In this document: positions 15,183 to 29,577 of the stretch, piece by piece
Layout: the number at the start of each line of letters is the position of its first letter
How positions within the stretch are numbered: position 1 is the first letter of the stretch
Source: a virus
Taxonomy: Duplodnaviria > Caudoviricetes
IMG/VR virus record: IMGVR_UViG_3300043416_000007
Span: 1-35,321 of that record
Direction: 5' to 3' (one strand)
DNA: 35,321 nt
Made by a program: the position numbers and the translations under genes
Notes under the pieces: generated by a model
Database searches by the model: none
What the model was told of the DNA's origin: nothing
What the model saw: only the letters and a program-made list of their open reading frames with translations

Positions 15183-15469
15183 TTCTTGTTCCTCTCGGAT
15201 ATTGCTTTGGCCTTGGCTCGCGCATCAGCCTTAGATGACGCACCCCAGGCTTTCAAACTCAGCAGCAAGCGCGTTGGCTCGCCATCTTTCATCTCAGCGC
15301 CTGGCATATTGCCCATTCTCGCAAGGAATGATGCCCTGCGCGGGTTATCGCCAGACTTGACCGGCGCTTTCAGATTCATACCCTCGGCCTTGGCACTGGC
15401 GCGACCCTTGGCGTTCAACCCGCCGCTGGGACTCTTTCCCTCTTTACGCTGCCACGCTAGTGTCTTCAT
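15179..15469 (-). CDS. small basic conserved phage protein (DUF6321-like)
   Basis: WQRKEGK.P.GGLNAKGRAS...RRASFLARM; ATGA overlap gives a start at 15469. Confidence 0.8.
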   Translation of the reverse strand: MKTLAWQRKEGKSPSGGLNAKGRASAKAEGMNLKAPVKSGDNPRRASFLARMGNMPGAEMKDGEPTRLLLSLKAWGASSKADARAKAKAISERNKK

Positions 15470-15981
15470 TTGATGCCCCAAAAATACAGGTCTCGTGGAG
15501 ACTGATTTTCGCTAAATTCATGCCGTGAAAACCTCTTGACCAACAAACCAAAGTGTCCGGCCTCCAGGTTCATGTAGTAGTCATTGGTAAAAGGCGCATC
15601 AGCCGGTGATGTTCTAGTTGTCCCATGCTCTTGCCTGCCAGTGGTCGCGCAGGAAAATACAACCAGACCGCCAACCCTGACCAGATCAACCATCTTGGAG
15701 AATGTCTTACGCCAGTGCCGGTCATGCTCAAAGCACTCGCACGATATGGCAACATCAAAATGTCCATCAGCATATGGCAACTCATGCCCTGCACAGACAA
15801 TGTCAACGCCCTTGCCTTCTCCTAAGTCGCAACCCACATACTCTTCAGTATTTACGAAGAAGTCGCGCACGCTGCCGTTAATGTTCAATGAACCAATCTC
15901 TAAAACCCGCCCACCCGCAAAAAACTCAGGGAATTGAGCCTTCACGCCACCGACAAAGTTGATCTGGGACTCGTGACTCAC
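15466..15981 (-). CDS. class I SAM-dependent methyltransferase (small molecule/glycan type)
   Basis: VLEIGS, YVGCD, FDVAIS.ECFEH motifs; no DPPY/PCQ DNA-MTase motif; GTGA overlap start. Confidence 0.85.
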   Translation of the reverse strand: MSHESQINFVGGVKAQFPEFFAGGRVLEIGSLNINGSVRDFFVNTEEYVGCDLGEGKGVDIVCAGHELPYADGHFDVAISCECFEHDRHWRKTFSKMVDLVRVGGLVVFSCATTGRQEHGTTRTSPADAPFTNDYYMNLEAGHFGLLVKRFSRHEFSENQSPRDLYFWGIK

Positions 15982-16673
15982 TTGAACCACTCCTCTGCAT
16001 AGTGTGGCCTATTCTGCAATAGCCACGGTATAGCCGCCCTGGTCAGGGTCTCACCATTCAATCCAATGGTCTGGCTGCCAACGTGATGCACATAAGACCG
16101 GCTCAGGTAATGACTAAAACCCGCTGCACGCAAGTCTTCGCAGTGGACATCGTCTGAGTACCAGTTCAGTGGTGGGAACTTAAAGCAGTCCCAGGCATCG
16201 CGGCCAATCCACGCGAATATAGGGCTAACAACCTCCATTGGAACGATGGCGTCCTCGTAGGGATACTTGAAATAGTGCAGCTTCTGGTTAAATGGATTAC
16301 TGCGGATGTTCTGCACCGGCCTGGCTGCATCGCAACGCGCAGAAACCCAGCCCACTGGCTCGCCGGTTTCAGCCTTTAGCTGCCGGACATCCTCCACCAG
16401 CATCCGGTAGCTGGTGGGCGTCAGGACAATATCGTCATTAGCGCAGATCACAGACTCAAAGCCATCAGCAAAGGCGCGGTCCATGACGTTGTTGTAATCG
16501 TCACCAAAATTGTGCGCTGCACCAAACACTTTTAGGTCGGTGTCAAAGCCGCCAATCACTGACTCTGGACCGCGCAAGTAGACAGGCACCTCGGGACAGT
16601 ATTCGGCAATACTTGCAAGCATCACCCGCAAACCCTTGCCATGCACTGTCGAGATGCAGATCGGTGAGATCAT
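15978..16673 (-). CDS. GT-A fold glycosyltransferase-like protein
   Basis: NFG..YN, ANDDIVL, WYSDD and YVHHVGSQT motifs. Confidence 0.75.
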   Translation of the reverse strand: MISPICISTVHGKGLRVMLASIAEYCPEVPVYLRGPESVIGGFDTDLKVFGAAHNFGDDYNNVMDRAFADGFESVICANDDIVLTPTSYRMLVEDVRQLKAETGEPVGWVSARCDAARPVQNIRSNPFNQKLHYFKYPYEDAIVPMEVVSPIFAWIGRDAWDCFKFPPLNWYSDDVHCEDLRAAGFSHYLSRSYVHHVGSQTIGLNGETLTRAAIPWLLQNRPHYAEEWFK

Positions 16674-17313: not shown

Positions 17314-17331
17314 AGTGTCTCCGTGTATAAT
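17302..17331 (+). promoter_or_regulatory. putative sigma70 promoter for the HNH gene
   Basis: TTGCGT-N18-TATAAT (TATAAT at 17326-17331). Confidence 0.45.
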
Positions 17332-17362
17332 ATCGCTATATCAACTAATAGCGATTGAAGTT

Positions 17363-17875
17363 ATGAAAACAATTGAATGCTCATTTTGCAAAGAACAATT
17401 CAAGCCTAAAAGAAAAACAACGAAATATTGCGGTAGACATTGTCAGTCAAAGCATATCGCTATTCTATTTGGGAAACAACGATCTGAAAAACGCAAGAAC
17501 GGGAAAAATTTTTCATGTCTTGTTTGCTCTACTGAATTTTATGCTCCAGCCTATCGCCTTGAAACTGCCAAATATTGCTCTAGGAAATGCACCTCTATCG
17601 CTAATCCTGAGAACACCAAAAAAGCACAATTTGCAAGCCCAATAATGAAACGATCTGGCGTTTCAGAAAAGAGGAAATACGTTGTCATTACTGTTGATGG
17701 AAAGCAAATTCGTGAACATCGTCATGTGATGCAAGTTCATCTTGGTAGAAAACTGGAAAAACATGAGCACGTTCATCATATAAACGGCAACCCAATAGAC
17801 AACAGAATTGAAAACTTACAAGTTCTGACAAATTCAGATCATCAAAAACTGGAACTTAGCTTTTTTTCTGTTTAG
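17363..17875 (+). CDS. free-standing HNH homing endonuclease with two N-terminal Cys-rich Zn modules
   Basis: EHRHVM...HVHHING...DNRIENL; two CxxC..F...KYCxxxC units; AT-rich and antisense to its neighbours. Confidence 0.9.
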   Translation: MKTIECSFCKEQFKPKRKTTKYCGRHCQSKHIAILFGKQRSEKRKNGKNFSCLVCSTEFYAPAYRLETAKYCSRKCTSIANPENTKKAQFASPIMKRSGVSEKRKYVVITVDGKQIREHRHVMQVHLGRKLEKHEHVHHINGNPIDNRIENLQVLTNSDHQKLELSFFSV

Positions 17876-18048: not shown

Positions 18049-19476
18049 TTATGCTACGCGAGGCAGATTCCTGCGCAGCGGCTTGTTCCAGGACACCTTC
18101 GCACCGCCAAATGCACCGATTACCGCGTCTGAGGCAAACGTCAGGCAAAAGGCGTCTGCGCGGTCAGGACTCGGGAAACCGCGCTTTCTGATCTCGTCCT
18201 TGCCCTCAATCTGAATCTTTCCGCTGGACGTGAACGAATACCGCACGATGGCCAACTCTGCCACCAAAGCCTCGTCCTTAGGCATCTTGCAGTCACGCCC
18301 CTCCAGCCATGCTTTGGCCTTGTGCCATAACTCAGCCTTCAGATTCCGGTACGTCGCGCCCATCGCGGGACTCTCGGACACGTTGATGCCGCGACAAGGC
18401 AGATTCAGTTCCCGCAGCCTGTCAACCACTCCCGCGCCCAGGCCGATGCTATCCACCAGGATTTCCATTGGCCTCTCTGACGGCGGCAGCGCCTCATACT
18501 CGGAGACCACCGCGCCCGTGAGTTGCATCAGGTCTAGGTTCTTCCAGGTCTTGATCGGCTCGGTCACGGCGTTACCCTTGCGCTTGCAGAGTGCCGACCT
18601 ATCTGATCCAAACCGCGCAACGTCCAGACCCCAGACCATTGGCGCCGACTGACTCGGCTCAACGTCCCTCTGCTGCGCCATCTCCAATAACTCCATAGGG
18701 ATGACAGTATCGTCATCTGAACGCGGGAACTCCCCCAGCACCCTGATCCGGTAGGCATTGCTCTCCTCGCCGTAGCGTGCCGCCATCTCCCCCAGGTACG
18801 CCTCAGACACGCGGGGGGAGTCGGCGCACGACACCTTCATCGTCACCCAATCATCCTTCAGCCGGTTGTGGGTGTCGTAAAAGAAACCCGTACTGCGCAC
18901 CGGATTACCCAGCAACAGCGTCACCGCCTTGTGACCCGACATCGAGCCTGCTGCTGCTTCAAACACCGCCTCGGGGATGCCGGACGCCTCGTCGGCCACC
19001 AGCATGACGTTGTCGCTGTGAACGCCTTGCAATGCTTCTGGTTGCTCTGCGCGGCTAGTCCTGGCCGATATGAACGCCTCGTTGGGTGCCTCCTTGACCT
19101 CAACCCTGTCCTGCTTGACATCCAACTGATCGGCCAGCATGGGCGGCAACTGCTTAACCCAGCGCTTCAGTTCCGCGAACAGTGCGTCGTAAAGTTGGCT
19201 TGACGTTGGCGCTGTAACGACAACCTTTACAGGAAACCGCAGGAACAGATACCAGAGCATTGCCCAGGCGCTGGCGGTTGACTTCCCCACGCCGTGGCCG
19301 GAGCGCACGCTAATGCGTCGGTTTCCAGCCGCAATGTGATTCAGAAACTCTACTTGCCAAGTGTCAGGCTCGGTGTTCAGCACCTCGCGCACAAACAGCA
19401 CAGGGTCATTCCGATACCGCAATGCGAACTCAATGAACGGGTTATCGGGAACTTCCAAATTTTTTTTTGTAACCAT
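18049..19476 (-). CDS. terL: terminase large subunit
   Basis: Walker A SGHGVGKS, Walker B LVADEASG, coupling motif GNP, nuclease GLDVARFG.D and SPD.ADA. Confidence 0.95.
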   Translation of the reverse strand: MVTKKNLEVPDNPFIEFALRYRNDPVLFVREVLNTEPDTWQVEFLNHIAAGNRRISVRSGHGVGKSTASAWAMLWYLFLRFPVKVVVTAPTSSQLYDALFAELKRWVKQLPPMLADQLDVKQDRVEVKEAPNEAFISARTSRAEQPEALQGVHSDNVMLVADEASGIPEAVFEAAAGSMSGHKAVTLLLGNPVRSTGFFYDTHNRLKDDWVTMKVSCADSPRVSEAYLGEMAARYGEESNAYRIRVLGEFPRSDDDTVIPMELLEMAQQRDVEPSQSAPMVWGLDVARFGSDRSALCKRKGNAVTEPIKTWKNLDLMQLTGAVVSEYEALPPSERPMEILVDSIGLGAGVVDRLRELNLPCRGINVSESPAMGATYRNLKAELWHKAKAWLEGRDCKMPKDEALVAELAIVRYSFTSSGKIQIEGKDEIRKRGFPSPDRADAFCLTFASDAVIGAFGGAKVSWNKPLRRNLPRVA

Positions 19477-19628
19477 AGTGCGTTGTTAGGTAGGGGGTAG
19501 GGGGTCAGTGGAAACGTTCATCCGGTAGGTGTTTAGGTGCTGCCACAACCGCCCCGCCGCCACGGCCAGACGGGGGGGGGTCGGGCGCCGCCGGCCAGGG
19601 AGCGGCCACCTGGCGACGGGCTGCAGCC

Positions 19629-19637
19629 TGTGGACAA
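19629..19637 (-). promoter_or_regulatory. DnaA box, one mismatch (TTGTCCACA)
   Basis: 8/9 match to TTATCCACA; shares the flanks C...CT with the two perfect boxes. Confidence 0.55.
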
Positions 19638-19682
19638 CTCAGCACGCTGCGCGTCCCCTCTGACGCTGCGCTATGGTGCGCG

Positions 19683-19695
19683 TAACCCGTTGATT
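19683..19695 (-). promoter_or_regulatory. IHF binding site
   Basis: AATCAACGGGTTA matches WATCAANNNNTTR exactly. Confidence 0.6.
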
Positions 19696-19740
19696 CGATT
19701 GAGTATTCTGCTGCGCGTCTGAACTTAGTTCATCTGCGCT

Positions 19741-19768
19741 ACTTAATACAGTGTCCATTATGTGAATG
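19741..19768 (+). other. dif-like XerCD recombination site
   Basis: ACTTAATACAG-TGTCCA-TTATGTGAATG; 11-6-11 layout; XerD arm 8/11 and spacer 4/6 identical to E. coli dif. Confidence 0.55.
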
Positions 19769-19817
19769 AAAACAGGGTGTTTATGCCTGTTTCTGCTTAA
19801 TCCTTGAGCAAATGCAC

Positions 19818-20264
19818 TCATTCTGTGGATAACTTAGGCACTGCATCTGTGGATAACTGCTCGACCACCTCGACATGGCGCAGCGCCTCCATGCGCAAAC
19901 CCTGGATGCTGATGTTCACGGCCTGCGCTTTGTCAGTGCCGTAGGTCTTCCGATCCCAGCGTTCCGCGAGCCACTGGCGCGTTCTGATGCGCTGCACGTC
20001 GCGCTGGCCGTTGTCCACGTCCATGCCGTCCGCTATGGCGAGTGTCTCGCAGGCGAGATGCGAGGCCGCTTCCACCCGCGCGCGCGTTATTTTAGCCTCA
20101 TAGTCGTTGTCCGCTATCCACGTATCGAGCGCACGCCGTCCGATGCCTAGGCCACGGCATATGTCTGCCTTGCTGCGTCCCTCTTCAAACATCGACAGGA
20201 TTAACTCGTCATCGATGTCCTCCAGCAGCGCAATGTCTGCCCTCACTTTCGGATTCCCAGGCAT
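19818..20264 (-). CDS. terS: terminase small subunit
   Basis: N-terminal HTH, Y..AR...A......IAD and RI.TRQWLA.R.....YG pattern; upstream of terL. Confidence 0.75.
   Translation of the reverse strand: MPGNPKVRADIALLEDIDDELILSMFEEGRSKADICRGLGIGRRALDTWIADNDYEAKITRARVEAASHLACETLAIADGMDVDNGQRDVQRIRTRQWLAERWDRKTYGTDKAQAVNISIQGLRMEALRHVEVVEQLSTDAVPKLSTE
19824..19856 (-). promoter_or_regulatory. two perfect DnaA boxes in direct repeat (19824-19832, 19848-19856)
   Basis: TTATCCACA twice, 24 bp apart, within the 13-bp repeat TCTGTGGATAACT. Confidence 0.7.
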
Positions 20265-20327
20265 TAGACGGCCCTCCAAGCGCGTTTAGCTGGTGCAAGC
20301 ACCTTACCTACCACCTCGCCCCATAAA

Positions 20328-20975
20328 TCATGCTGTACGCTCATTTCTAGCCCTTTCTGCTGCCTTTGTGTCGAACAACTTGCCACCCTTGAATGGCTTA
20401 CTGATGTCGATGTCGTTTTCCATCTCCTCAAACCCGCTGGAGCCTTGCGGCGTCACGGGAACCATTGTCGCGCTTGGAATCGCCGCCTTGATGTCTCTCA
20501 CTTGCTTGAGTGTCGGACCCGTCATCACCACTTCAAGTTCCGCGAGTGTCCAGATCGATCTCGCGCCTGGCGCCTTGCGGAACTGCTCGTACCAGGTCGC
20601 TGTTCTTTTATCCCTGACGATGACCATCAGGCTCCCGTCGGCCATCCGGTGTTCCATGCAGTCAATTTTAGGCATTTGCTCAATGCCTGCCTCAGTCGCC
20701 CACCTGGTAAGCGCCTTGTACGCTGAGATCATTCCCCTGATGGCTTTCTCTAGCCGTTCCTCGTCCCGCGCCTGGCTGGCCTCCCAGATGCGCTCCCGCT
20801 GCGCGTTGAACTTCCTTCGGAACTCGGCATCCACCAAATCAATCACTCGGTCTATCCCGTAAACCCGTTCATGGTCCATTTTTGCGGTTTCCATCTCAAC
20901 CATGAGCGAATGCTCAAAGACTTTGAAATGGTCGCTCGGATACACGTCAGTCTCCAACAATTTCTTCGATGCCAT
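20328..20975 (-). CDS. hypothetical protein
   Basis: Likely start MASKK at 20975; the track's upstream extension runs through the origin repeats. Confidence 0.75.
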   Translation of the reverse strand: MASKKLLETDVYPSDHFKVFEHSLMVEMETAKMDHERVYGIDRVIDLVDAEFRRKFNAQRERIWEASQARDEERLEKAIRGMISAYKALTRWATEAGIEQMPKIDCMEHRMADGSLMVIVRDKRTATWYEQFRKAPGARSIWTLAELEVVMTGPTLKQVRDIKAAIPSATMVPVTPQGSSGFEEMENDIDISKPFKGGKLFDTKAAERARNERTA

Positions 20976-20988
20976 CTCTAATCCTTTA

Positions 20989-21206
20989 CCTAGGCAACTT
21001 ACACAAAACAATTTCCGAGGTAGGCAACCTAGACAACTTACAACTTGCATTAAGCAAGTTGTTGTAAGTTGCCTAGGTTTTTACCCTTTCCTGTACAACT
21101 CGCTACCTAGGCAACAGTCTAGATTTACCCATCTTGTCTAGGTTTTTCAAACATAAGTACATAGGCAATTGCCTAGATTTCACATAGGCAAGATGAAAGT
21201 TGCCTA
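20989..21206. repeat. putative replication origin: about 10 TAGRCAA iterons in both orientations plus a long hairpin
   Basis: TAGGCAA/TTGCCTA at 20991, 21021, 21069, 21108, 21162, 21169, 21185, 21200; variants at 21030, 21134; directly downstream of the primase-helicase. Confidence 0.8.
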
Positions 21207-23282
21207 TCAAAATGGACTCACAAACGGCTCATCTTTGTCCTTGTCGGGGTAGATTACCCAGCAATATTCAGCCATTTCGGTCTTGTGGTAACCCACTAAT
21301 TTCTTCTCAAACATGGCGTTTTTGCCACGATACCAGTCCGTGTCTATGCTCTTGCTGTCGCCCTTGCGCTTCACAAATGATTCGCGCCACTCGCTCAACA
21401 TCACCGTCTTGTGACGCTCGTTACCTACGCTTGTCATATGCCCATTCTTCTCAATGGCATCGTGGATTGACTCGTAGGCCGCCAACTGGTTCCCATATAG
21501 CTTGCGTGGTTTTGCCTGGCGCTCTACTGATTGCTGCTGCATATCCTGCTTGAGCGCCTCGTCACTGGCTCTAACCGCCAGGCTGATCTGCGCCTCGCTG
21601 ATACCCAATTGGCTCGCTTGAATCTCCACCTTCACCATCTCAAAGCCGATTTTGACTCCCGTCTCGCCGTCCTTCATCTTGGTGATGTGGATCAATCCTG
21701 ACCCAGCCACATCGCTGGCGGCATTCGGAACTGAGTCCAGCTTGATAAGTTCAAGCTGCGAATCGCACGCACCTAAGAGACTGCTATGCCCTCGAGCACC
21801 TTGCTCTTTGTTTTTTCCGCTGTGATGCACCACCATCAGGGCGCAGTTAAGCATCCTCTGAATCCTGCCGGTGTTGTGAATGAATGCTCCCATGTCTTGA
21901 CTGTCATTCTCCTGGCCGCCACCAAATGCTCTGGCTAACGTGTCAATCTGGACCATTTCAAACTGGACACCGGTGCGCTCAATCAAATCCTTTATGGATG
22001 CCATTAATAGATCAAAGTCATCAACGCTCGATCTCAGGTTGATGGCGGCTCTCAGCACATAGATTTCGGCTCCAGCTGCGGTCTTGTTGTGCAACTTGGC
22101 GGCCTTGATGCGAGCGCCTATACCCCCATGCCCCTCACCAGCAATGATTAGCACTCCCCCTGGCGTTGGGACATCGCGCCCCATCCACGGCCTGCCAGTT
22201 GCTACAGCCTCTGCCATATCCAGAGCCACAAATGACTTGTATGAGCCAGGTGGTCCAAAGAGTAGGCAAAACCCTTTGGCGGGTAACACCCCATCTATTA
22301 AGTATTCAACCGGCTCGTCCTCAATGTCATCCCAAGCCTCAATGTTGAGCAACTGCCGTGGTACAAGAATTGGTACAACCGTACCCATATCGGGTTCAAT
22401 TGGGTATTCTATTGGGTCAACCGTTTCCCGTGGAACAATCCACTTTGGCGTCTGCACCTGGTCAACGCTGGTAATAACCGGCAGCGCCTTGGCTAGTTCT
22501 GCCAGCTTGGCCCTATCACCGCCATCCGCAACCCACTCGTATGCATCGTCACCTAATTCGGGCAGGTTGAAGTCGAGCACTCGCACAGCTTTGGCGACTG
22601 GTAAGAGCGCCTCCACCACCCGCCTGGCGTACTTCCAACCAGGCGCATCGCAATCAGGGACTACGATTACAACTGCGTTGGTGAAGTATTGGGTGATGTC
22701 TGCCGGCCAGTGGCCTGCACCAGCGTGAGACGTAGTGGCAATGGCACCTATGCTGACCAAGGCATCCGCTGCCTTCTCGCCCTCCACCAGATAGATGGCG
22801 CGGCCAGCTTCCTTAGCGTTGATAAGTTCCGGCAGGCGGTAAGGCACTATCCTTGCCCCTGTCATGCTGCCCTGCCTACGTCCTGCGGCATCCACCTTGT
22901 GCAGCGAATACGTCTTGCCCTTCTCGGTGTTTGTCTTGAACCGGCGCTTTACGAATAGCGTCTCGCCTGACTCGTCTTTATATTCCCACTCCTGCTCCAG
23001 CGTTGGCATAGTCATCAATTCACCTTTAATGAGCGCGAGACTGTACTCCTGGCGCTGGATGCTTGGCAATAGGTTGCGTTCCCGTACAGCGTCAAATACC
23101 GAGTGCTGGTCGCAACCACCGTGGCAATGAAATAATAATTTCCCATTGTCTTCCTTGATGCTGAGACTCGGGTTCTTGTCACCATTGCCGCGTCCGTGGC
23201 CAGCTACAGGGCAACTCGCAAGCCAGTTCCCGTTTACCTGCTTGGCGTTGCCTAGCGCCTTGGCTATGTGTTCTGTGTCCAT
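21207..23282 (-). CDS. primase-helicase (Zn finger + TOPRIM + RepA/AAA_25 helicase)
   Basis: CP..H....D.NPSL...HCHGGC; LVEGEK.AD; PD.D.PG; GPPGSYKS; IDTLAR; VHHSGK; RGHSSL. Confidence 0.92.
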   Translation of the reverse strand: MDTEHIAKALGNAKQVNGNWLASCPVAGHGRGNGDKNPSLSIKEDNGKLLFHCHGGCDQHSVFDAVRERNLLPSIQRQEYSLALIKGELMTMPTLEQEWEYKDESGETLFVKRRFKTNTEKGKTYSLHKVDAAGRRQGSMTGARIVPYRLPELINAKEAGRAIYLVEGEKAADALVSIGAIATTSHAGAGHWPADITQYFTNAVVIVVPDCDAPGWKYARRVVEALLPVAKAVRVLDFNLPELGDDAYEWVADGGDRAKLAELAKALPVITSVDQVQTPKWIVPRETVDPIEYPIEPDMGTVVPILVPRQLLNIEAWDDIEDEPVEYLIDGVLPAKGFCLLFGPPGSYKSFVALDMAEAVATGRPWMGRDVPTPGGVLIIAGEGHGGIGARIKAAKLHNKTAAGAEIYVLRAAINLRSSVDDFDLLMASIKDLIERTGVQFEMVQIDTLARAFGGGQENDSQDMGAFIHNTGRIQRMLNCALMVVHHSGKNKEQGARGHSSLLGACDSQLELIKLDSVPNAASDVAGSGLIHITKMKDGETGVKIGFEMVKVEIQASQLGISEAQISLAVRASDEALKQDMQQQSVERQAKPRKLYGNQLAAYESIHDAIEKNGHMTSVGNERHKTVMLSEWRESFVKRKGDSKSIDTDWYRGKNAMFEKKLVGYHKTEMAEYCWVIYPDKDKDEPFVSPF

Positions 23283-27809: not shown

Positions 27810-27909
27810 AGTGCTACGTCAAAATAGAAAACACGGCCTACCTTTTGAGCAGGCCGTGTCTGAGATACAGGCATCTGTGAACGATGCCTTGGCGCTGATT
27901 CCGGATTAA
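27718..27909 (+). CDS. hypothetical protein
   Basis: GAGGTG RBS; last rightward early gene. Confidence 0.7.
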   Translation: MQITAIFQDEQEAIKAIHSDYAWQALREINEVLRQNRKHGLPFEQAVSEIQASVNDALALIPD

Positions 27910-28175
27910 GCAGCCTCGGTTTCTTCTTCCTCTTCGTCGTACTCTTCTTCGTCGTCGCCCCAATCAGCTTCGTCATCCTCAACCAGCAGCCACTCGCCGG
28001 TGTCTTCGTTGAGCCAGTACCATGCGTCGTACTCGCAGTCGTACCAGCAGTAGCAATCATAGTCCTCGTCGTACTCGTACTCTTCGCCTTCTTCAAAGTA
28101 ATCAAAAACCGAATCAAATTCCTCGTCGTTTTCTACTTCGACAGAGTTGTTGACAATGAATGTGAGATGAAACAT
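27906..28175 (-). CDS. extremely acidic, aromatic-rich 89-aa protein
   Basis: AGGAG RBS before the ATG at 28175; 39 D/E and 0 K/R. Confidence 0.8.
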   Translation of the reverse strand: MFHLTFIVNNSVEVENDEEFDSVFDYFEEGEEYEYDEDYDCYCWYDCEYDAWYWLNEDTGEWLLVEDDEADWGDDEEEYDEEEEETEAA

Positions 28176-28183
28176 AAAAACTC

Positions 28184-29155
28184 CTATACGTTGATGATCT
28201 GACCGCGAAACTCTACCTGATTTTCGTCCCCCCACTTGTGGACTATTTCAGGCCACAAAAGCTTACCACCCTTGAATGTCAGCACAGCAAACCCAGACCT
28301 GTGGTTTAATGGATTCCCTTCGCCGTAATCAAACTGCGGGCCATATGGTTCAGCAAGTGTTCCAGTATCTACACCGTACCTATTGCCCGTGTAATCAGCA
28401 AATGGCGTAACTTTTAGGCTATGCAAATGCCCTGTAACAATGGATATGCCAGCGTTGACTGTATTGTTGTGCGCGGCGTGGATGCCAGATCTGAATCTGT
28501 GTTTGATAATGCATTCTTTTGTAGGCCAGACAGACCAGGCAAACTCCCAGGCTGGCAGGTGATCTTGCAGCTTGAATCCATGCACTTCTTTGTACTGCGG
28601 AGCCTGAGAGGCCAACTTGTTAGCAAAGCGAGAATCGTGATTGCCCCAGGTAAACAGCAGTTTGCAGTTGTGCCTAGCCGCCTTGGCCGTCTCCTCAATC
28701 TCGCCAAGATGAGCCTGCACCGCCTTGAGTTCTTCGATTACAGATGGAGTCTTAGACCAGCCCAGCGGGTCATGCCTGCTGATAGTAGCCCCGTCAAAGG
28801 CATCTCCATTGCTGATAACAACGTGCGGTTTGAGTTCCTTGATAGCCCACAGCAGTCCCTTGTAGGCGGTGGTGTATTCATTAGGCCAGAAATGCGCGTC
28901 ACTGAAAACGATTATGGTCTGGTCAAGTACGCCAAGTTCAATCTTGTTCAGCGAGGTCTGGATTGGCTGGAACTGAGAATATTTCTTTGCCCTATCGTCA
29001 AAGTTAATCAGAGGCTGGTTTGTTTCTTTTTCAATTCTGCGCCTACGATTGAGGACAGATCGCTCAGAAACATCTAAGTGTTTCGCTACTAAGATAGCAG
29101 AACCATGACGGTTCCAAACATTGATAAACTCTTCTCGGGAAACTTTAGGTTGCAT
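28184..29155 (-). CDS. calcineurin-like metallophosphoesterase with N-terminal HTH-like region
   Basis: SDAH, NGDAFD, GNHD, KH and GHLH motifs; GGAG RBS. Confidence 0.9.
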   Translation of the reverse strand: MQPKVSREEFINVWNRHGSAILVAKHLDVSERSVLNRRRRIEKETNQPLINFDDRAKKYSQFQPIQTSLNKIELGVLDQTIIVFSDAHFWPNEYTTAYKGLLWAIKELKPHVVISNGDAFDGATISRHDPLGWSKTPSVIEELKAVQAHLGEIEETAKAARHNCKLLFTWGNHDSRFANKLASQAPQYKEVHGFKLQDHLPAWEFAWSVWPTKECIIKHRFRSGIHAAHNNTVNAGISIVTGHLHSLKVTPFADYTGNRYGVDTGTLAEPYGPQFDYGEGNPLNHRSGFAVLTFKGGKLLWPEIVHKWGDENQVEFRGQIINV

Positions 29156-29205
29156 GGTGACTCCACAAAGTTGCTCGGAATCTAACACTAATTGATGTAA
29201 TAAGC

Positions 29206-29577
29206 ATGACCCCAACTCGTCTAAAGCAGATTGAGCAGGCGCTCAGAAAACGCCCCATGACGTGCGTTGAGTTGGCGGCTGCAGTGTTTCTATCTAATCG
29301 TGCCGTTGAGCACAACATGAATAGGATGCATGAGCGCGGCCAGGTCTACATCGCACGTTGGGAGCGTACTGCTGGCTCTATTGCAAGGGTCTACGCCTGG
29401 GGGATAGGCGCCGACGCTCCCAGGCCAGAGCGTCAATCTGTGCGCGAGAGGGTTAAGCGTTTGCGTGAGCGTGAGTCCCAGGAGGATAAGGACTTCCGCT
29501 TGGCGCGTGAGCGTGGCAAGCGCAGGAAGATCAAGGTTGATCCGCTGATGGCGGCTTTCTACTCAATCCCCAAGTAG
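29206..29577 (+). CDS. winged-helix DNA-binding protein
   Basis: MT..ELA....LS.R.V.......H..G.VYI..W; basic C-terminus ending DPL.AAFY. Confidence 0.75.
   Translation: MTPTRLKQIEQALRKRPMTCVELAAAVFLSNRAVEHNMNRMHERGQVYIARWERTAGSIARVYAWGIGADAPRPERQSVRERVKRLRERESQEDKDFRLARERGKRRKIKVDPLMAAFYSIPK

What the first reader, a model, noticed from the sequence alone, without database searches (positions are those of the whole stretch)
19620..19860. Host-chromosome mimic cassette between terS and terL: DnaA box, IHF site, dif-like site, two more DnaA boxes
Seen: about 230 bp hold sites resembling three different host chromosome-cycle factors, in a genome with no visible integrase, partition gene or DNA polymerase and with a separate iteron origin at 21.0-21.2 kb. 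Known: DnaA, IHF and XerCD/dif govern bacterial initiation and dimer resolution. Inference: this may be a protein-free cis module. It could support episome maintenance or integration, concatemer/dimer resolution with IHF and DnaA as accessory factors (analogous to cer/psi), or coupling of packaging to the host cell cycle. I know of no described tailed-phage system with this combination, but cannot search to confirm.
Basis: partly seen in the sequence, partly recalled or inferred. Interest (0 to 1): 0.85.

Follow-up and report, generated by a model that had tools for sequence, protein, structure and literature searches.

The report
Phage dif site framed by DnaA
A freshwater phage and its uncultured relatives keep a look-alike of the bacterial chromosome-untangling site (dif) beside their DNA-packaging genes, framed by DnaA- and IHF-type motifs at fixed distances, which likely lets host enzymes join the phage genome to itself without a phage recombinase.

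Summary
The motifs are real and under selection, though two of the three DnaA boxes lie inside the terS 3' end. The core (19741-19768) matches the published Rhodoferax dif at 20 of 28 bases, with a different central hexamer. All 82 distinct related terS-terL regions keep it. In IMG/VR, dif-like sites lay upstream of terL in all 100 loci where a terL was found (43 of 122 and 57 of 120 fetched), across several terL families. DnaA boxes and the IHF motif hold fixed, partly helix-phased offsets from dif, even beside unrelated terL genes or when inverted. A sister clade lacks dif and its boxes (0 of 48) and carries a serine resolvase gene there instead. No close prophage was found. Best reading: host XerCD recombines phage DNA with itself, likely circularising terminally repeated DNA, with DnaA and IHF as helpers. 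Binding, genome ends and recombination are untested. Against: resolvase phages keep DnaA boxes at their putative origin, so a replication role is open. No paper describing this was found; this scan noted dif beside terS, and DnaA boxes around dif, on other DNA.

The parts
18049..19476 (-). terL, terminase large subunit (475 aa)
   Evidence: PHROGs phrog_2 E 4e-47, phrog_5902; Pfam Terminase_6N
19495..19502 (+). KOPS-like octamer pointing towards dif from the terL side; role doubtful
   Evidence: one of 3 in the window; KOPS consensus recalled; may only reflect the G-runs common before terL
19538..19582 (-). C-run/G-run motif before terL, shared with dif-less relatives; candidate genome-end mark (inferred)
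   Evidence: the annotated 357-bp terminal repeat of phiM5 ends 42 bp past the start of the same kind of C-run; no stable fold (z 1.18)
19629..19637 (-). DnaA box 3 (1 mismatch here), offset -112 from dif
   Evidence: perfect box in 33 of 45 clade cassettes, this variant in 11
19683..19695 (-). IHF-consensus site, offset -58
   Evidence: full consensus in 20 of 45 clade cassettes, one mismatch in 25 of 45; offsets -46/-47 or -56/-58 in other clades
19741..19751 (+). XerC-type arm, Comamonadaceae type
   Evidence: 8/11 to Rhodoferax dif; same arm type with core TGTATA in 28 of 81 genomes around G374
19752..19757 (+). central hexamer TGTCCA, unlike the host core TGTATA
   Evidence: 44 of 45 clade cassettes; 0 of 120 phage sites carry the host core
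19758..19768 (+). XerD-type arm
   Evidence: 8/11 to Rhodoferax dif; 8 of 11 positions invariant in 45 cassettes
19824..19832 (-). perfect DnaA box 2, offset +83, inside terS codons 150-152
19848..19856 (-). perfect DnaA box 1, offset +107, inside terS codons 142-144
   Evidence: invariant in 45 of 45 cassettes; codons TTA/TCC/ACA fixed in 52 of 52 terS sequences
19818..20279 (-). terS, Sf6-like small terminase
   Evidence: Pfam Sf6_terminase E 8e-12; phrog_1482
20985..21206 (.). direct/inverted repeat array behind the primase-helicase gene; putative origin, separate from the cassette
   Evidence: no DnaA box here; the same position holds repeats plus DnaA boxes in the resolvase clade and L323
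21207..23282 (-). primase-helicase (AAA_25)

Best explanation
The 230-bp stretch is a conserved module built round a 28-bp dif-like site, with DnaA boxes and an IHF-type motif at fixed distances, and it likely lets the host's XerC/XerD recombine the phage genome with itself, most likely closing terminally repeated virion DNA into a circle, with DnaA and IHF as predicted architectural helpers. Shown: the motifs, their conservation and spacing, the likeness to a Comamonadaceae-type dif, the private core, the position upstream of terL, the lack of a phage recombinase, and mutual exclusion with a resolvase gene. Inferred: (1) the host is a Comamonadaceae-type betaproteobacterium; (2) the cassette lies in the terminal repeat, so each virion DNA has two copies in direct repeat; (3) IHF bends and DnaA oligomers wrap or bridge the flanks, bringing the cores together as PepA/ArgR/ArcA do at cer/psi; (4) XerCD crosses over, or XerC makes a Holliday junction that replication or the phage resolvase finishes; (5) the altered core keeps the phage from recombining fully with the chromosomal dif.
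For: Selection on DNA: spacing between the three boxes unchanged in the >=96% terL clade; majority-base frequency 0.98-1.0 in boxes and core vs 0.87 in spacers; box-1 codons fixed 52/52 though TTA is 9% of Leu codons and 14 of 86 conserved-residue codons are monomorphic. dif-like site in 82 of 82 distinct terS-terL regions, >=17/22 arm matches in 74. Position: upstream of terL in 43 of 43 and 57 of 57 loci with a terL hit, several terL families, both orientations. Boxes follow dif: same offsets beside ~30%-identical terL (L481, L469, L478, L501; 62-70% cassette identity) and in inverted modules (L315, L380, L350, L323); 338 relaxed boxes in 38 kb near dif vs 24 in 118 kb of flank; none near 11 of 11 host dif sites located in 12 loci. 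Phasing: IHF offsets one turn apart; reverse boxes on the XerD side R=0.66 at 10.5 bp, p~0.009, n=10. Natural swap: resolvase clade has no dif and no box after terS in 48 of 48; 5 of 5 whole cassette genomes lack both recombinase families and 5 of 5 resolvase genomes lack the dif pattern; L386 (dif) is sister to L570 (resolvase), 100/99; L323 has origin boxes and dif boxes, its resolvase sisters only origin boxes. phiM5's annotated repeat reaches 314 bp upstream of its C-run; the cassette spans 275 bp.
Against: No binding, recombination or terminus data. Genome ends not seen (contigs only); the terminal-repeat placement rests on one 52%-terL relative that itself lacks dif. cer/psi synapsis favours supercoiled circles (bioRxiv 2026.02.23.706985 passages), and serine resolvases also need supercoiling (recalled), which fits multimer resolution better than closing a linear DNA. 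Resolvase phages keep 2-4 DnaA boxes at the putative origin in 30 of 35 loci with upstream DNA in view, while the window's origin array has none, so the boxes may serve replication. Canonical-arm phage difs mostly lack boxes (12 of 122), so DnaA is not generally needed. XerC-side boxes are not phased (p 0.76, 0.41), and offsets were merged by eye after seeing them. IHF site and arms are barely more conserved than spacers (0.89-0.91 vs 0.87), and IHF is absent in some clades. The window's exact XerD-arm variant was matched in 1 of 301 family genomes, not examined as a dif. Counts are not dereplicated by lineage.
Confidence: 0.5

Rival explanations
1. Same Xer self-recombination, but the substrate is multimers of a supercoiled circular form (theta replication or a plasmid-like carrier state), as at cer/psi; DnaA and IHF impose the topological filter.
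For: Swap with a serine resolvase; private core; Bacillus phage B83, proposed to be a plasmid prophage, has an XerD-like gene between terS and terL (PMC6669507 passages).
Against: Does not explain why the site is upstream of terL in 100 of 100 loci; no partition gene or clear repressor family found.
Confidence: 0.2
2. The DnaA boxes and IHF site do a job of their own: a DnaA-dependent primary origin or helicase-loading aid, or a datA-like DnaA sink; dif merely shares the region.
For: Resolvase phages keep boxes among iteron-like repeats; the window's repeat array has none; box-IHF-box in one orientation recalls datA, whose spacing matters (PMC4585315 passages); L387 and L532 show 11-bp-spaced box arrays.
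Against: Offsets are tied to dif across unrelated and inverted contexts; L323 has both box sets and only the dif-linked set is missing in its resolvase sisters; box orientation varies between clades; AT content peaks at only 0.68, on dif itself.
Confidence: 0.15
3. The site is an attP for integration at host dif through a XerC-made Holliday junction finished by replication, like CTX-type IMEXs.
For: Host-type arms; the XerC-side three core bases equal the host's in 67 of 120 sites (that XerC cuts on that side is recalled); the route is described in PMC6744903.
Against: No close prophage: 2 short phage-like MAG contigs in genome contigs, only 30-36% terL hits in 4 of 401 family genomes; integration would split terS from terL; 53 of 120 cores differ even on that side.
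Confidence: 0.08
4. The proteins bind but do not recombine: the region is a packaging, injection or transcription-control signal (IHF-assisted terminase cut; DnaA anchor as proposed for T5 iss; roadblock before terL).
For: IHF-like motif and C/G-run occur before terL in phiM5, which lacks dif; DnaA boxes lie in the T5 terminal repeat (bioRxiv 10.1101/866236).
Against: Two arms with exact 6-bp spacing and a clade-fixed core; replacement by a recombinase gene.
Confidence: 0.07

Closest known systems
Plasmid Xer sites cer (ColE1) and psi (pSC101) with PepA + ArgR/ArcA
   Same: dif-like core with a non-host centre, about 200 bp of flanking protein-binding motifs, host XerCD, no own recombinase (PMC6744903 part 1; bioRxiv 2026.02.23.706985 passages)
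   Different: Tailed phage, beside terminase; flanks carry DnaA and IHF motifs on both sides, mostly the XerD side; PepA/ArgR/ArcA sites not identified; activity untested
Chromosomal dif of Rhodoferax/Comamonadaceae type (XerCD/FtsK)
   Same: 11-6-11 layout, 16 of 22 arm bases as in R. ferrireducens (PMC2731167 table row)
   Different: Different core; DnaA boxes absent around 11 host sites; on a phage
Phage P1 Cre/loxP circularisation of headful DNA
   Same: Site-specific closing of packaged linear DNA on entry (PMC2841073 passages show it for lox-flanked DNA in P1 heads; loxP lying near pac in P1 itself is recalled)
   Different: P1 encodes Cre; here the recombinase would be the host's, with accessory motifs
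IMEXs (CTX, TLC, gokushovirus prophages)
   Same: Phage-borne dif-like site using host XerCD (PMC6744903, PMC7062461 passages)
   Different: Those integrate and are not tailed; no prophage or XafT-like family found here
T5 injection-stop region; E. coli datA/oriC
   Same: Ordered DnaA boxes in a phage terminal repeat (bioRxiv 10.1101/866236); DnaA boxes around an IHF site (PMC4585315)
   Different: No XerC mention in the T5 preprint; here a dif-like core is the anchor

Membership tests
Xer (dif-type) core site | 11-bp XerC arm, 6-8-bp centre, 11-bp XerD arm like the host's | tested here: met
Xer (dif-type) core site | bound and recombined by XerC/XerD | not testable with these tools
   needs EMSA and recombination assays
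cer/psi-type resolution site | about 200 bp of conserved accessory DNA at fixed spacing from the core | tested here: met
cer/psi-type resolution site | accessory proteins PepA + ArgR/ArcA | not tested
   motifs seen are DnaA and IHF types; ArgR/ArcA boxes not scanned
cer/psi-type resolution site | intramolecular resolution on supercoiled multimers | not testable with these tools
   -
IMEX attP | prophage at host dif with split attL/attR | tested here: not met
   none; samples only, so not proof of absence
IMEX attP | core compatible with host dif | tested here: inconclusive
   full match 0 of 120; XerC-side half 67 of 120
P1-type loxP circularisation site | site present twice in packaged DNA | tested here: inconclusive
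   position 100/100 upstream of terL; phiM5 analogy; no read ends
P1-type loxP circularisation site | phage-encoded recombinase | tested here: not met
oriC/datA-like DnaA-IHF element | DnaA boxes flanking an IHF site at conserved spacing | tested here: met
   window clade; IHF missing in several clades
oriC/datA-like DnaA-IHF element | AT-rich unwinding element; DnaA-dependent activity | tested here: inconclusive
   AT peak 0.68 on dif itself; activity not testable

The most novel reading that the evidence does not exclude
A family of freshwater tailed phages uses the host initiator DnaA, with IHF, as the accessory proteins of an Xer synaptic complex in the terminal repeat, so the injected genome is circularised, and handed to replication, entirely by host proteins, and this module is interchangeable with a phage serine resolvase.
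Probability: 0.3. Interest if true: 0.88.

Novelty: new variant of a known kind. Interest (0 to 1): 0.74.

Why it matters
How small tailed phages with no recombinase close or monomerise their genomes is mostly assumed. A host-XerCD site tied to the terminase region, exchangeable with a phage resolvase, gives a defined 230-bp substrate to test. DnaA as an accessory factor for site-specific recombination was not found in my searches and would link initiation and recombination. The XerC arm also carries a host signature (Comamonadaceae-type versus canonical), a possible host-prediction marker for uncultured phages.

Tried and rejected
Coding artefact (boxes as LST codons): rejected by fixed rare codons and by non-coding, reversed boxes in relatives. 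Structured RNA: no Rfam match; the C/G-run folds no better than shuffles. Sigma-70 promoter or terminator: none in 19400-21300. Polynucleobacter as host, suggested by a MAG contig: its dif has a canonical XerC arm and another core. Reads: four runs held contigs only, three flagged as possible sources; no ends. Contig ends: 11 of 24 within 200 bp on the XerC side vs 3 of 20 on the XerD side (pooled view), not separable from assembly breaks at a variable, homopolymer-rich stretch. KOPS polarity: 3 sites in the window, weak skew in loci. Annotated relatives: dif-like site upstream of terL in 1 of 12 records checked (C72C1; not P26218, MEP301, Venkman, HTVC010P/027P/106P, BcepC6B, phiM5 or three Manatee Spring genomes; fetched stretches only). 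240-aa ORF upstream of terS: no family, Atlas hits 0.76 only. blastn of cassettes against annotated phages gave only short hits. The search for a C72C1 paper gave nothing relevant.

Full report
Context. The window is a virus record rated 100% complete; its ends overlap by about 36 bases. It has SU10-type capsid and portal genes, terL (18049-19476), an Sf6-like terS (19818-20279), a primase-helicase, a Cas4-like exonuclease and a Holliday junction resolvase. No recombinase or partition family was found among the ORFs scanned and no PF00589 match in six frames. It occurs in freshwater metagenomes.

Observation. All motifs are present. The two perfect DnaA boxes lie inside the terS 3' end. Alone, DnaA (8 vs 6.4 expected) and IHF (2 vs 1.0) matches are not above chance. 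The 28-mer at 19741-19768 is a poor E. coli-type dif but matches the Rhodoferax ferrireducens dif printed in PMC2731167 at 20 of 28 bases (table row seen). Genome G374 carries the Rhodoferax sequence over the 24 bases shown, and 28 of 81 genomes around it carry this arm type with core TGTATA. Polynucleobacter has a canonical arm. A Comamonadaceae-type host is therefore inferred; the window's exact XerD-arm variant matched 1 of 301 family genomes.

Conservation. From 150 IMG/VR loci, 130 entries with both genes gave 82 distinct regions, window included, terL 81-100%. All 82 hold a dif-like site (74 at >=17 of 22 arm matches). In the >=96% clade (45 distinct cassettes; one region dropped because my pattern missed its core) box spacing is unchanged; majority-base frequency is 0.98-1.0 in boxes and core, 0.89-0.91 in IHF site and arms, 0.87 in spacers. 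The IHF consensus is complete in 20 of 45. Box-1 codons are fixed in 52 of 52 terS sequences, against 14 of 86 monomorphic codons overall.

Breadth and position. A strict canonical dif pattern matched an estimated 1,300 IMG/VR stretches; 122 loci were fetched. A terL was found in 37 of 80 with long flanks and 6 of 42 with short ones, and dif lay upstream of its estimated start in all 43, 96-2,050 bp away, in both orientations and several PHROG terL families. Many of the rest are filamentous phages. The Comamonadaceae-type pattern (about 440 stretches, 120 fetched) gave 57 terL hits, again all downstream of dif. These counts are not dereplicated.

The boxes belong to dif. Of those 120 loci, 100 have a box within about 150 bp; 338 boxes lie in 38 kb near dif against 24 in 118 kb of flank. 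Host dif sites have none (11 located in 12 loci). Offsets recur: reverse boxes at +32, +83, +94, +107, +116-118, +127-128; forward at +38, +78-80; IHF at -46/-47 or -56/-58 (including loci). They persist beside terL of about 30% identity and when the module is inverted. Ten distinct reverse offsets on the XerD side cluster at 10.5-bp phase (R 0.66, p about 0.009; offsets merged by eye); XerC-side boxes do not. Canonical-arm phage sites rarely have boxes (12 of 122) but often an IHF motif at +42.

Natural swap. MW202879 (terL 69%) has a PF00239 serine resolvase gene just after terS. Among 54 related loci, the 48 with terS in view have no dif-like site and no box between the terS end and 1.5 kb past the resolvase start; none of 344 + 122 dif loci holds that resolvase in the fetched DNA. 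Five complete cassette genomes lack PF00239 and PF00589, and five resolvase genomes lack the dif pattern. On a terL tree of 29 representatives from 244 sequences, dif-bearing L386 is sister to resolvase-bearing L570 (100/99), with canonical-dif phages outside. L323 and L570/L571 share terS, the C/G-run motif and terL at 71-81% DNA identity but differ in this slot. Against a simple picture, resolvase phages keep 2-4 boxes about 800 bp upstream of terS among iteron-like repeats in 30 of 35 loci. L323 has that set and the dif-linked set, so only the dif-linked boxes leave with dif; yet the window's own repeat array has no box, so a replication role stays open. Bacillus phage B83 has an XerD-like gene between terS and terL (PMC6669507 passages).

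Integration. No close prophage was found. No phage core equals the host core (0 of 120); the XerC-side half does in 67.

Mechanism. Self-by-self recombination explains the private core and the resolvase swap. The strict tie to the terminase start suggests the site must be doubled in packaged DNA. phiM5 (terL 52%) has an annotated 357-bp terminal repeat covering the 3' part of the ORF before terL and ending just past a C-run/G-run motif; a repeat of that reach would contain this whole cassette. That is an analogy; reads gave no ends. cer/psi-type synapsis favours supercoiled circles, which keeps multimer resolution as the main rival.

Literature. Ten searches (listings and abstract starts) returned no paper on dif-like sites beside tailed-phage terminases or on DnaA as an Xer accessory factor; the library lacks most subscription papers. 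Read: PMC6744903 part 1 of 5; bioRxiv 10.1101/866236 part 1 of 6 plus passages; passages only of PMC2731167, PMC3025954, PMC4585315, PMC6669507, PMC7062461, PMC2841073, PMC10386132, PMC3931495, PMC11769102 and bioRxiv 10.64898/2026.02.23.706985. No supplements were opened; the dif tables of PMC3025954 could name the host more exactly. The phiM5 paper was not read. Consensus motifs for DnaA, IHF and KOPS are recalled. Earlier notes of this scan report dif beside terS, and DnaA boxes around dif, on other genomes; they are unchecked and not counted as support.

Verdict. A real, widespread and apparently undescribed variant of Xer-site hijacking. The host-type match, dif-anchored DnaA/IHF frame and resolvase swap are shown here; function is inferred. 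Interest 0.74.

Noticed in passing
L566-L619; MW202879 966-1634: Clade with a serine resolvase gene about 210 bp after terS, behind a sigma-70-like promoter; short palindromes after the terS stop may be its res site.
   Followed up: partly
window 19538-19582 and before terL in most loci: C-run/G-run motif followed by an A-tract precedes terL across terL families, with or without dif; candidate terminase or genome-end signal.
   Followed up: partly
L174 around 2500: Canonical dif flanked by five copies of another 9-mer (CGTGGAACA) in place of DnaA boxes, plus an IHF motif.
   Followed up: no
L231 around the match: Two dif-like sites about 55 bp apart upstream of terL.
   Followed up: no
L213:180-340 (155-kb contig): Canonical dif with five DnaA boxes 46-96 bp away and IHF-like motifs.
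   Followed up: no
L387, L532: Arrays of perfect and degenerate DnaA boxes at about 11-bp spacing next to dif.
   Followed up: no
L561:667; L564:1457-1499: Pelagiphages HTVC010P and HTVC106P have DnaA boxes in the non-coding DNA before terL without a canonical dif.
   Followed up: no
window 17315-17875 (+): HNH endonuclease gene on the opposite strand just downstream of terL.
   Followed up: no
window 20328-21050 (-): Orphan ORF between the repeat array and terS; no family assigned.
   Followed up: partly
about +2,100 from dif in 43 loci: A single perfect DnaA box recurs at a position corresponding to the primase-helicase gene.
   Followed up: no
window 27906-28235 (-); 28184-29215 (-); 15466-15990 (-): Very acidic small ORF; metallophosphoesterase; SAM methyltransferase before the portal gene.
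   Followed up: no
L155:2824-2877 (phage C72C1): Annotated phage with a canonical dif-like site and IHF-like motif between terS and terL; a possible experimental handle.
   Followed up: partly
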